A DNA stretch of 64,000 bases from assembly GCA_946495655.1 (NCBI GenBank), contig CAMMDS010000002.1, positions 28,984-92,983 of the forward strand, in the 5' to 3' direction. Shown in pieces: positions 16,864 to 17,096 of the stretch. Below the pieces are notes generated by a model that saw only the letters and a list, made by a program, of their open reading frames with translations, made no database searches and had not been told where the DNA came from. Origin of the DNA: an uncultured Clostridium sp. GTDB lineage: Bacteria > Bacillota > Clostridia > TANB77 > CAG-508. A program made the position numbers and the translations under genes. Numbering within the stretch: the stretch's first letter is position 1; each line of letters begins with the position of its first letter.

Positions 16864-17096
16864 GAGTCTTAGTAGTATGTATATTTTTCAAATTTTTGTA
16901 CCTTGCTGTCAAAACCATCTAAGCACAAAATAAATATGAAAAAATTCATGATGATTAGCTATTAGTTGAAAAAAATATATATTGCAATAATTCTAATATG
17001 TGCTAGGTTTTTCCAGATCGCACTCGCTTTTACAAAGCTCGTTTGGTCGCTGCGCGGTACTGCAAAATTTTCTAAATATACATACTACTAAGACTT
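16864..17096. mobile_element. MITE-like intergenic element family D, copy 1 (233 bp, 23-bp terminal inverted repeats, GC-rich conserved core, no ORF)
   Basis: Terminal inverted repeats GAGTCTTAGTAGTATGTATATTT / AAATATACATACTACTAAGACTT. Core GCGACCAAACGAGCTTTG.AAAAGCGAGTGCGAT...AAACCTAGCACA is shared with 34075-34250 in opposite orientation. Confidence 0.55.

What the first reader, a model, noticed from the sequence alone, without database searches (positions are those of the whole stretch)
16864..17096. MITE-like intergenic element family with a GC-rich core, whose terminal inverted repeats differ between copies but stay complementary
Two copies are present, at 16864-17096 and 34075-34250, in opposite orientation. 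They share a conserved core (GCGACCAAACGAGCTTTG.AAAAGCGAGTGCGAT.GGA.AAACCTAGCACA) but have different terminal inverted repeats (23 bp versus 20 bp). Each copy keeps perfect or near-perfect self-complementarity. Compensatory change of the ends suggests selection for a long closing RNA stem, i.e. an sRNA or regulatory hairpin, rather than transposase-recognised ends. Both sit in promoter-proximal spacers (obg/trpS and rnj/glk).
Basis: seen in the sequence. Interest (0 to 1): 0.55.

Follow-up and report, generated by a model that had tools for sequence, protein, structure and literature searches.

The report
Foldback MITE family with invariant core
The two intergenic hairpins are copies of a previously undescribed small mobile DNA element (a MITE) that is scattered through a group of uncultured low-GC gut Clostridia and carries an unusually well-conserved folded core of unknown function.

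Summary
Two copies share a GC-rich core, and their flanking arms differ but stay self-complementary. The 18-mer core occurs twice in the window (0.01 expected). It also marks about 55 further copies in 12 uncultured Clostridia MAGs.

About half the copies, including copy 1 (16833-17125), end further out in inverted repeats of the form GTTAC(T/A)NTTCA. These ends are conserved across genomes, and eight copies are flanked by perfect 8-bp target duplications. That is the signature of a DDE-transposase MITE.

The other copies, including copy 2, have no such ends and no duplication. How they spread is unexplained.

Inside the long foldback lies a junction of about 120 nt. Its 5' strand is nearly invariant. 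Stems P1 and P4 covary at all 11 pairs, and P3 also covaries. Indels rule out coding, and Rfam has no match.

Whether the fold acts as RNA or as single-stranded DNA is unresolved. The wobble test is not significant, and no conserved promoter or terminator was found.

Relatives have a MITE-free trpS-obg spacer of 16 nt. At glk-rnj they keep deletion remnants of an old insertion.

Verdict: a new member of a known kind, moderately interesting because the core looks like a structured nucleic-acid cargo.

The parts
16833..17125 (-). Copy 1, full-length MITE of 293 bp. The core-sense strand is the minus strand, co-directional with trpS and obg.
   Evidence: Ends were defined by alignment of about 12 copies from one MAG, whose similarity stops exactly at GTTAC...GTAAC, and by the TIR search in the window. 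An identical element is present in L067, L113 and L114.
16833..16848 (+). Outer terminal inverted repeat of copy 1, GTTACTGTTCAGTATA.
   Evidence: One mismatch to the family consensus GTTACTGTTCAGTG. The same TIR occurs in other genomes with perfect 8-bp TSDs.
17110..17125 (-). Outer terminal inverted repeat of copy 1 at the other end, GTTACAGTTCAGTGTA on the minus strand.
16825..16832 (.). Possible decayed 8-bp target-site duplication of copy 1. ATAATTTT here, with partner TAAATCTT at 17126-17133 (5 of 8 identical).
   Evidence: Inconclusive in AT-rich DNA. Eight other TIR pairs have 8/8 TSDs.
16864..16886 (.). It pairs with 17074-17096.
   Evidence: (I9).
17006..17060 (-). Copy 1 core: near-invariant 5' strand of the junction (P1', P2, P2a, P3, 5' half of P4), including the 18-mer at 17033-17050.
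   Evidence: 107 bits, E=4e-21.
16898..16916 (-). Copy 1 partner strands: the second strand of P1 (16898-16902), the conserved single strand GACAGCAAG, and the 3' half of P4 (16911-16916).
16917..17005 (-). Copy 1 variable apical region, about 60 nt longer than in other copies.
34071..34253 (+). Copy 2, TIR-less hairpin copy of 183 bp. The core-sense strand is the plus strand, antisense to glk and rnj.
   Evidence: I10; 109.9 bits, E=9e-22. No GTTAC end within 110 nt. The glk C-terminus GNDAGIIGAVID* is genuine coding sequence conserved in relatives, so the element does not extend into it.
34071..34093 (.). Copy 2 outer arm. It pairs with 34231-34253.
   Evidence: At the orthologous site of relatives with 69% ROK identity, the arms carry two substitutions that are present on both arms.
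34109..34163 (+). Copy 2 core: P1 5' strand (34109-34113), the near-invariant 5' strand with the 18-mer at 34119-34136, and the P4 5' strand (34158-34163).
34164..34198 (+). Copy 2 variable apical hairpin.
   Evidence: Flagged as weakly terminator-like, but this feature is not conserved in the family.
34199..34217 (+). Copy 2 P4 3' strand (34199-34204), the conserved single strand GACAACAA (34205-34212), and the P1 3' strand (34213-34217).

Best explanation
The two loci are copies of a non-autonomous foldback transposon (a MITE) that populates a narrow clade of uncultured, roughly 28% GC gut Clostridia.

Shown:
- The family has about 57 copies.
- About half the copies end in conserved terminal inverted repeats, (G)GTTAC(T/A)NTTCA..., in three sequence types.
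- Eight copies carry perfect 8-bp target-site duplications. This is the footprint of a DDE transposase acting in trans with an 8-bp staggered cut.
- The same ends also flank unrelated interiors.
- Inside the ends, the element is a long imperfect hairpin enclosing a junction of about 120 nt (P1, P2, P2a/P3, P4).
- The 5' strand of that junction is nearly invariant across genomes, while its stems, loops and linkers vary and the stems covary.

Inferred:
- The junction is a folded single-stranded nucleic-acid module (RNA when co-transcribed, or ssDNA) under purifying selection. It is a cargo rather than something needed for transposition, because core-less derivatives and other cargos use the same ends.
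- The differing but complementary arms result from two processes. One is selection for the foldback. The other is DNA-level arm correction by intrastrand template switching or gene conversion, of which one clear instance is seen.
- The most likely consequence for the host is the classical MITE one. The hairpin lies just after a stop codon, becomes part of the 3' UTR or intercistronic RNA, and changes termination, processing or stability.

Not explained: about 40% of copies, including copy 2 and one recently amplified subfamily, lack the outer repeats and any target duplication.
For: Copy number and distribution:
- 66 genome hits to the 18-mer. 53 loci in 12 Clostridia MAGs carry the whole element; the rest are chance hits in unrelated phyla.
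- The covariance-model search gives 62 matches, and only 2 are in the window.

Boundaries and TSDs:
- Alignment of about 12 copies from one MAG loses similarity exactly outside GTTAC...GTAAC.
- Perfect 8/8 TSDs occur at L001, L016, L048, L052, L058, L063 and L103, with 7/8 at L024. L025 has AGTTAATA and L052-mini has ATTAAAAG.
- The TIR motif was found in 0 of 198 background regions, against both ends in 14 of 46 copies and one end in 9 of 46.
- The same TIR types flank other interiors: L004:6990-7199, L008:3304-3398, L044:5103-5264, L103:1637-1762.

Structure:
- 96.8% of cells are paired, against at most 54% when partners are slid.
- 14 of 23 pairs show double changes. The covariation score is 0.237 against 0.073 in shuffles (0 of 500 reached it).
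- P1 covaries at 5/5 pairs and P4 at 6/6.
- P3 variants are GCUUU/AAAGC, GCCA/UGGC and GU/AC.

Not coding: indels of 1, 7 and 8 nt lie inside the most conserved stretch.

Selection on the core: at one orthologous locus in 4 MAGs, the 57-nt core strand has 0 of 342 pairwise differences. The neighbouring CDS and flank differ by 4.5-5.8%.

Insertion:
- The trpS-obg spacer is 16 nt in relatives with 95% identical TrpS. It is 367 nt, including the 293-bp element, in the window.
- The element is prone to deletion. Mini derivatives occur at L056:2080-2199 and L052:6608-6726, and remnants at glk-rnj in L115, L116 and L119.

Arm correction: in L052 the right arm is the exact complement of the left arm.

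The definition of bacterial MITEs (TIRs, direct-repeat target duplications, no transposase, long RNA stem-loops, frequent location at gene 3' ends) is taken from PMC3184786.
Against: - No autonomous partner was found. No transposase was detected among 122 ORFs next to copies, and there were no multi-copy proteins. Only about 0.5 Mb was searchable, and the Pfam summary lists only the commonest families.
- 23 of 46 copies have no recognisable outer TIR, and GTTAC is not enriched near them (17% against 10% background).
- A subfamily of at least 5 near-identical copies in one MAG ends sharply at AGCCAAG...CTTGGCT, with unrelated flanks and no TSD.
- The window copies themselves have no clean TSD (copy 1 has 5/8; copy 2 has none).
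- No precise empty site with identical flanks was recovered.
- Nothing shows that the element is transcribed. G.U against A.C in model pairs is 13 vs 8 (p=0.38), and in the arms 39 vs 37.
- The purine bubble in the arms is closed to Watson-Crick pairs in 5 of 30 copies, so it is not essential.
Confidence: 0.75

Rival explanations
1. It is primarily a family of small-RNA or cis-regulatory RNA genes. The long closing stem and the junction are selected at the RNA level, and mobility is incidental or absent.
For: - Covariation occurs in P1, P3, P4 and the arms, next to invariant loop and junction nucleotides.
- The core-sense RNA folds more stably than its complement in 39 of 45 distinct copies, by a mean of -7.6 kcal/mol.
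- Orientation relative to neighbouring genes is biased: 19 against 7 tandem loci (p=0.029), and 29 against 12 genes reading into the element.
- The core is invariant at an orthologous locus where flanks differ by about 5%.
Against: - Conserved TIRs with 8-bp TSDs and tens of copies per genome show transposition.
- No conserved promoter or intrinsic terminator was found.
- There is no Rfam match at E<=10.
- The wobble-pair test is not significant.
- The copies in the window lie in both orientations within one replichore and one gene direction.
- The core is dispensable at several loci.
Confidence: 0.12
2. The hairpin module is mobilised as single-stranded DNA by a TSD-less mechanism, similar to REPIN/RAYT or IS200/IS605 PATEs, or to attC-like recombination. 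The GTTAC-ended MITEs are merely carriers into which it has nested.
For: - About half the copies lack TIR and TSD, including a recently amplified subfamily with sharp hairpin ends.
- The same core occurs with three different TIR types, and those TIR types occur with other cores.
- The structure is conserved while the arm sequence varies, as with attC or REP.
Against: - No hairpin-free 'carrier' version was found. The two core-less minis keep the inner-arm sequence and have different junctions, so they are deletions.
- The arm sequences are never found elsewhere without the element.
- There is no GTAG-type REP head and no RYYYAAC/GTTRRRY core sites.
- No HUH or integrase gene association was seen. 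Only two Phage_integrase hits occurred among 122 neighbouring ORFs.
Confidence: 0.08
3. The complementary-but-different arms are not selected at all. They are by-products of DNA-level quasi-palindrome correction, or of insertion into pre-existing palindromic targets.
For: - In L052 one arm was rewritten as the perfect complement of the other.
- G.T and A.C mismatches in the arms are balanced, 39 vs 37.
- The interior is inverted relative to the outer ends in L056-mini and in L119, as expected from recombination between arms.
Against: - P1 and P4 are only 5-6 bp long, lie more than 100 nt apart, and still covary at every pair.
- Mismatched purine loops persist in most copies despite correction.
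- Identical arms occur at several unrelated loci, and no empty palindromes exist. This excludes the palindromic-target version.
Confidence: 0.05

Closest known systems
Correia elements (CREE/NEMIS) of Neisseria and ERIC elements of Enterobacteriaceae
   Same: They are small (100-160 bp), multi-copy, intergenic foldback MITEs with TIRs. They often lie at gene 3' ends, are co-transcribed, and form long RNA hairpins that affect mRNA processing and stability (PMC3184786).
   Different: - Those duplicate TA, which is IS630-like. This family duplicates 8 bp.
- Their most conserved part is the TIR. Here it is an asymmetric internal junction.
- This element is longer (180-360 bp), comes with three TIR types, and has a TIR-less class.
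bcr1-type MITEs and bcr4-6 repeats of the Bacillus cereus group (Kristoffersen et al. 2011, cited in PMC3184786)
   Same: They are Firmicutes intergenic repeats with predicted conserved secondary structure. Some are MITEs and some are suspected RNA elements. This comparison rests on my own knowledge and on the citation.
   Different: There is no sequence relationship. The target duplication is different (TTTAT for bcr1, from memory). That comparison was not tested here.
IS6/IS26-family elements and their MITEs (MITEBth2, MITEHarch3)
   Same: They make an 8-bp TSD. Their TIR consensus GGTTCTGTTGCAAA begins like (G)GTTACTGTTCA.., with G1 and G7 conserved. Clostridial 'long' clades VII and VIII exist with 8-bp TSDs (PMC6807381).
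   Different: Only about 9 of the first 10 TIR positions can be aligned, and that needs a gap. The conserved TTGCAAA half is absent. No IS6-type transposase was found. IS6 elements move by cointegrate formation, which fits a simple MITE poorly. This is a lead, not a membership.
REPINs (REP doublets forming hairpins) mobilised by RAYT
   Same: They are dispersed hairpin elements whose arms stay complementary while their sequence drifts. They lack a TSD, as the TIR-less half of this family does.
   Different: REPs are short, GC-rich and have a conserved GTAG head. Here the arms are AT-rich, a 120-nt asymmetric junction sits in the middle, and half the copies have DDE-type TIRs and TSDs.

Membership tests
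Bacterial MITE (non-autonomous DDE transposon) | Small size and no transposase ORF | tested here: met
   The elements are 180-360 bp. Only mechanical ORFs of 41-45 aa are present, and frame-breaking indels separate the copies.
Bacterial MITE (non-autonomous DDE transposon) | Terminal inverted repeats conserved among copies | tested here: met
   GTTAC-type TIRs were found at both ends in 14 of 46 copies and at one end in 9 of 46, against 0 of 198 background regions. Copy 1 has them. Copy 2 and 22 other copies do not.
Bacterial MITE (non-autonomous DDE transposon) | Direct target-site duplication of fixed length | tested here: met
   Perfect 8-bp TSDs flank 8 TIR pairs, and L024 has 7/8. Window copy 1 has 5/8, which is inconclusive. 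TIR-less copies have none.
Bacterial MITE (non-autonomous DDE transposon) | Many dispersed copies at unrelated loci | tested here: met
   44 distinct loci in 12 MAGs plus the window.
Bacterial MITE (non-autonomous DDE transposon) | Presence/absence polymorphism (empty sites) | tested here: inconclusive
   The trpS-obg spacer is 16 nt in relatives, or 125 nt of unrelated sequence, against 367 nt here. However, the flanks are not identical. At glk-rnj only deletion remnants were found.
Bacterial MITE (non-autonomous DDE transposon) | A cognate autonomous IS with the same ends | tested here: inconclusive
   None was found in the about 0.5 Mb held. The full genomes could not be scanned.
IS6/IS26 family derivative | TIR consensus GGTTCTGTTGCAAA | tested here: not met
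   Only GGTT.CTGTT aligns. The TTGCAAA half is absent (one search compared with PMC6807381).
IS6/IS26 family derivative | 8-bp target duplication | tested here: met
   This feature is shared with several other IS families, so it is not discriminating.
REP/REPIN-RAYT | Short GC-rich palindrome with a conserved GTAG head, no TSD, and a single-copy RAYT gene | tested here: not met
   The arms are AT-rich with no GTAG head. TSDs are present in half the copies. The RAYT gene was not searched genome-wide.
Any Rfam RNA family (riboswitch, ribozyme, sRNA, 6S, SRP and others) | Match to a covariance model | tested here: not met
   There was nothing at gathering score or at E<=10 on the elements. Only generic miRNA-hairpin hits appeared on other copies.
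Integron attC site | R''/R' core sites RYYYAAC...GTTRRRY bounding an imperfect palindrome next to a gene cassette | tested here: not met
   The element starts with GTTAC and ends with GTAAC, which is the wrong order, and GTTACTG does not fit GTTRRRY. It lies between housekeeping genes.

The most novel reading that the evidence does not exclude
The near-invariant four-way junction is a new class of structured RNA that hitch-hikes on a DNA transposon. It comprises P1, P2, P2a/P3 with a conserved GAGUG bulge, P4, and a conserved single strand GAC..CAAG. It could be a self-cleaving ribozyme, a protein- or ligand-binding RNA, or an antisense regulator transcribed against the usual gene direction. 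Its spread through these genomes would be driven by that RNA function rather than by the transposase alone. The closest analogy is the ribozyme-bearing SINEs and retrozymes of eukaryotes.
Probability: 0.2. Interest if true: 0.7.

Novelty: new member of a known kind. Interest (0 to 1): 0.4.

Why it matters
Bacterial MITEs are common, so a new family is not a surprise in itself. This one is worth noting because conservation is inverted. An asymmetric internal junction is more conserved than the transposase-recognised ends, across species whose proteins have diverged substantially. It is framed by stems that covary at every pair. That pattern normally marks a functional RNA or single-stranded DNA, and it gives RNA biologists a concrete 120-nt candidate to test. 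The family also offers a natural data set for two questions. One is how long palindromes stay complementary, because in-situ arm co-evolution, arm rewriting, inversion and deletion are all visible. The other is the puzzle of TIR-less copies that multiply without target duplications. In practical terms, the element breaks assemblies of these uncultured gut Clostridia, and it separates genes that are translationally adjacent in relatives (trpS-obg).

Tried and rejected
1. Insertion into pre-existing palindromic targets, to explain the variable arms. Rejected: identical arms occur at unrelated loci, and the arm sequences never occur without the element.
2. A degenerate type-B TIR for copy 2 reaching to about 34283. 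Rejected: that stretch encodes the conserved ROK C-terminus GNDAGIIGAVID* in relatives that lack the element.
3. L116 as a clean empty site for copy 2. Rejected: it keeps one arm and is best read as a deletion between TATATTT repeats. L115 and L119 keep other remnants.
4. A small-protein reading of the 41-aa and 45-aa ORFs. Rejected because of non-triplet indels and the absence of synonymous-type variation.
5. Known RNA families. Rfam was searched at gathering score and at E<=10 on the window copies and on six other loci, with no result.
6. A phage or plasmid origin. There were no hits in viral contigs (2 scans), PLSDB or INPHARED.
7. A literature search for the core string found nothing.
8. 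The transposase hunt found no multi-copy ORFs and no transposase family among the commonest Pfam hits of 122 neighbouring ORFs. TIR pairs 0.6-3.5 kb apart were all chance-level.
9. Strand assignment from G.U against A.C counts was not significant.
10. Conserved promoter or terminator: only copy-specific, chance-level matches.
11. The metagenome scan with the ROK protein returned only relatives of at most 58% identity, none carrying the core.

Full report
**1. Observation**

The 18-mer GCGACCAAACGAGCTTTG occurs at 17033-17050 (-) and 34119-34136 (+) and nowhere else in the window. The chance expectation is 0.01.

Each copy is bracketed by a long inverted repeat. Copy 1 has 37 nt at 86% complementarity and copy 2 has 35 nt at 91% (I9 and I10). 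The inner AT-rich part of the arms is shared between the copies. The outer 14-16 nt differ by changes that are mirrored on the opposite arm. An inner 5-bp stem also differs in a compensated way (GTACC/GGTAC against GAGTC/GACTC).

Either strand of either copy folds into one long hairpin, far more stable than shuffled sequence (z from -5.3 to -11.8).

**2. It is a family**

A scan of one genome per species for the 18-mer gave 66 hits. Thirteen are isolated chance hits in unrelated phyla. The other 53 loci carry the whole element, two of them twice. They come from 12 MAGs labelled uncultured Clostridia or Clostridium sp., from gut or animal samples.

A profile search and a covariance-model search add diverged copies. 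They confirm that the window holds exactly two.

The window is about 28% GC with uniformly negative GC skew. Its proteins have close relatives only in metagenome assemblies. The element is absent from viral contigs, plasmids and phages, and its core string is not in the literature library.

**3. True ends**

About a dozen copies from one MAG (BRZ_DL__bin12) were aligned with flanks. Similarity stops abruptly outside GTTACTGTTCAGTG...CGCTGAACAGTAAC.

They come in three related types:
- A: GTTACTGTTCAGTG
- B: GTTACAGGATAATGG
- C: GTTACAATTCACAGC

Unlike the arms, they are conserved between genomes.

Pairs of such ends are flanked by perfect 8-bp direct repeats in L001, L016, L048, L052, L058, L063 and L103, with 7/8 in L024. 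L025 and L052-mini also have perfect repeats. The TIR motif was found in 0 of 198 control regions.

The same ends and the same 8-bp duplication flank elements with quite different interiors: L004:6990-7199, L008:3304-3398, L044:5103-5264 and L103:1637-1762. This is the textbook signature of MITEs mobilised in trans by a DDE transposase (definition in PMC3184786).

Window copy 1 has these ends at 16833 and 17125, with one mismatch each, so it is 293 bp. Its flanking 8-mers match at only 5 of 8 positions.

**4. A complication**

Of 46 copies with enough flank, 14 have both ends, 9 have one and 23 have none. GTTAC is not enriched near the last group.

Window copy 2 is one of the TIR-less copies. 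I first read a decayed type-B end into 34270-34283. That stretch is the genuine, conserved C-terminus of the ROK kinase, so I withdrew the idea.

In MAG ERR4836027_bin.15 at least five near-identical copies end sharply at AGCCAAG...CTTGGCT. Their flanks are unrelated and there is no target duplication. These copies multiplied recently without the DDE footprint. I cannot explain this. Possibilities are a second, TSD-less mobilisation route or concerted evolution among old copies.

**5. Anatomy of the interior**

Read on the core-sense strand, the element has this order:
- the outer TIR
- a variable spacer
- a variable arm
- a conserved AT arm, GTATATTT-AGA-AAATTTTTG. Its partner arm is CAAAAAAATTT-GAG-AAATATAC. 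The AGA/GAG purine-purine loop is present in about 22 of 30 such copies and closed to Watson-Crick pairs in 5
- P1 (5 bp)
- P2 (CGC-loop-GCG)
- ACCAAACGA
- P3 (a hairpin of variable length)
- GAGUGCGA-nn-UGGAG
- P4 (GNAAMC/GKUUN'C)
- a variable apical hairpin
- the single strand CGAC-nn-CAAG
- P1'

On the 62-sequence model alignment, 96.8% of cells form standard pairs, against at most 54% when partners are slid. Fourteen of 23 pairs show double changes. The covariation score is 0.237 against 0.073 in shuffles, and none of 500 shuffles reached it.

All five P1 pairs and all six P4 pairs covary. One P4 pair is C-G in 22, A-U in 15 and U-A in 12 distinct sequences. P3 appears as GCUUU/AAAGC, GCCA/UGGC, GU/AC, or a minimal GC/GC. 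P2 and P2a never vary, so they are neither supported nor refuted.

Variation is confined to loops, linkers and stems. The segments GCGACCAAACGAG, GAGUGCGA and UGGAG are essentially invariant across all genomes. Indels of 1, 7 and 8 nt inside this stretch rule out a coding function.

No Rfam family matches, even at E<=10.

**6. Is the core under selection?**

At one locus shared by four species-level MAGs, the flanking CDS and intergenic DNA differ by 4.5-5.8%. The arms differ by 1-4% and the apical part by 4%. The 57-nt core strand shows no difference in 342 pairwise comparisons. The sample is small, but the result is consistent with purifying selection.

At the glk(ROK)-rnj site the insertion is old. 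Relatives whose ROK protein is only 69% identical, with the same synteny, retain a remnant (L119). Its arms carry two substitutions relative to the window, present on both arms. Its core has been deleted and its interior inverted.

Other relatives keep one arm (L116) or the other (L115). Close strains have the full element. The core is therefore conserved where it is kept, but it is dispensable. Core-less mini derivatives with two different deletion junctions confirm this.

**7. Why the arms stay complementary**

Two processes are visible.

The first acts on DNA. In L052 the right arm has been rewritten as the exact complement of the left arm, including the normally mismatched loop. This is what intrastrand template switching or gene conversion in a quasi-palindrome produces. 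Inversions of the interior relative to the outer ends (L056-mini, L119) indicate recombination between the arms.

The second is selection. P1 and P4 are too short and too far apart for such correction, yet they covary perfectly. The mismatched purine loops persist in most copies.

I found no evidence that the variable arms are pre-existing palindromic targets.

**8. RNA or DNA, and which strand?**

This remains unresolved.
- G.U against A.C in model pairs is 13 vs 8 (p=0.38). In the arms it is 39 vs 37.
- The core-sense RNA is predicted to be more stable than its complement in 39 of 45 distinct copies, by a mean of 7.6 kcal/mol. These copies are phylogenetically related, so they are not independent.
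- Across 44 distinct loci the core-sense strand is more often antisense to the neighbouring genes. The counts are 19 against 7 tandem contexts (p=0.029), and 29 against 12 genes reading into the element. The element usually begins 25-50 nt after a stop codon. This bias could reflect RNA-level selection, or replication-strand bias in a genome where most genes are co-oriented.
- No conserved promoter or terminator exists.
- The two window copies lie in opposite orientations within one gene direction and one skew domain.

**9. Context in the window**

Copy 1 sits 17 nt after the trpS stop and 57 nt before the obg start. In relatives with 95% identical TrpS the two genes are 16 nt apart. In others they are separated by 125 nt of unrelated sequence. 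The element is therefore an insertion into what is elsewhere a tight operon junction. A weak promoter-like site follows it.

Copy 2 starts 9 nt after the ROK kinase stop. It lies about 50 nt from a perfect consensus promoter (34017..33989, minus strand) that drives rnj.

**10. Comparison and verdict**

Functionally and structurally the element belongs with bacterial foldback MITEs such as Correia, ERIC, RUP and bcr1. It differs from them in four ways:
- the 8-bp duplication
- multiple TIR types
- a TIR-less class
- an internal junction that is better conserved than the ends

The TIR start resembles the IS6/IS26 consensus GGTTCTGTTGCAAA, and the TSD length matches (PMC6807381). The second half of that consensus is missing and no transposase was found, so I do not assign it to that family.

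It is a new member of a known kind. The residual interest lies in the junction, which has the hallmarks of a functional folded RNA or ssDNA, and in the unexplained TIR-less amplification.

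Noticed in passing
window 33726-34017 (minus strand), with L116 and L119: rnj (RNase J) is preceded by a 12/12 consensus sigma-70 promoter (34017..33989) and a leader of about 290 nt. The leader is almost identical in relatives whose neighbouring ROK protein is only 69-84% identical. It is therefore more conserved than the adjacent coding sequence and may be an autoregulatory 5' UTR.
   Followed up: partly
window 44595-44796: Another foldback element. 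It has 33-nt arms at 94% complementarity, 136 nt apart, around a GC-rich centre (GGCAGCGCCCTCACGAAAGCGTGAGATTCCCTACC). It is unrelated in sequence to the family studied here.
   Followed up: no
window 57857-58911: Seven tandem repeats of about 150 nt, 66-86% identical. They probably encode a repeat-domain protein.
   Followed up: no
window 5738-5769, 28345-28376, 57807-57838; also 783-822 and 12940-13077: Two small dispersed palindromes, GAGAAATTGGGGACAGACCCCAATTTCTC (three copies) and TTGAACAAAAGGGAGTGTCCCTTTTGTTCAA. They look like terminator-type repeats, and one locus has a double copy.
   Followed up: no
window 23582-23739: A glmS ribozyme/riboswitch (89 bits) and a tRNA at 6969-7042 are the only Rfam matches at gathering score.
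   Followed up: yes
L004:6990-7199, L008:3304-3398, L044:5103-5264, L103:1637-1762: Other MITEs have the same GTTAC-type ends and 8-bp duplications but different interiors. L044 combines type-B ends, the GTCCGCGCAGGG arms of another subfamily, and a different core (GCGAACGAAGCAGGGAGCTCCGTCGGGAC). This points to modular exchange between elements.
   Followed up: partly
L135:2015-2139 and L136: In another relative the trpS-obg spacer holds a different 125-nt insert, with a TTGACA-type promoter-like box and a GTGAAAC...GTTTCAC hairpin. This junction has therefore been remodelled more than once.
   Followed up: no
L126, L129, L130, L131: Several short-read contigs of close strains end 100-300 nt after the ROK gene, that is, inside the element. 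The repeat appears to fragment assemblies of these organisms.
   Followed up: no
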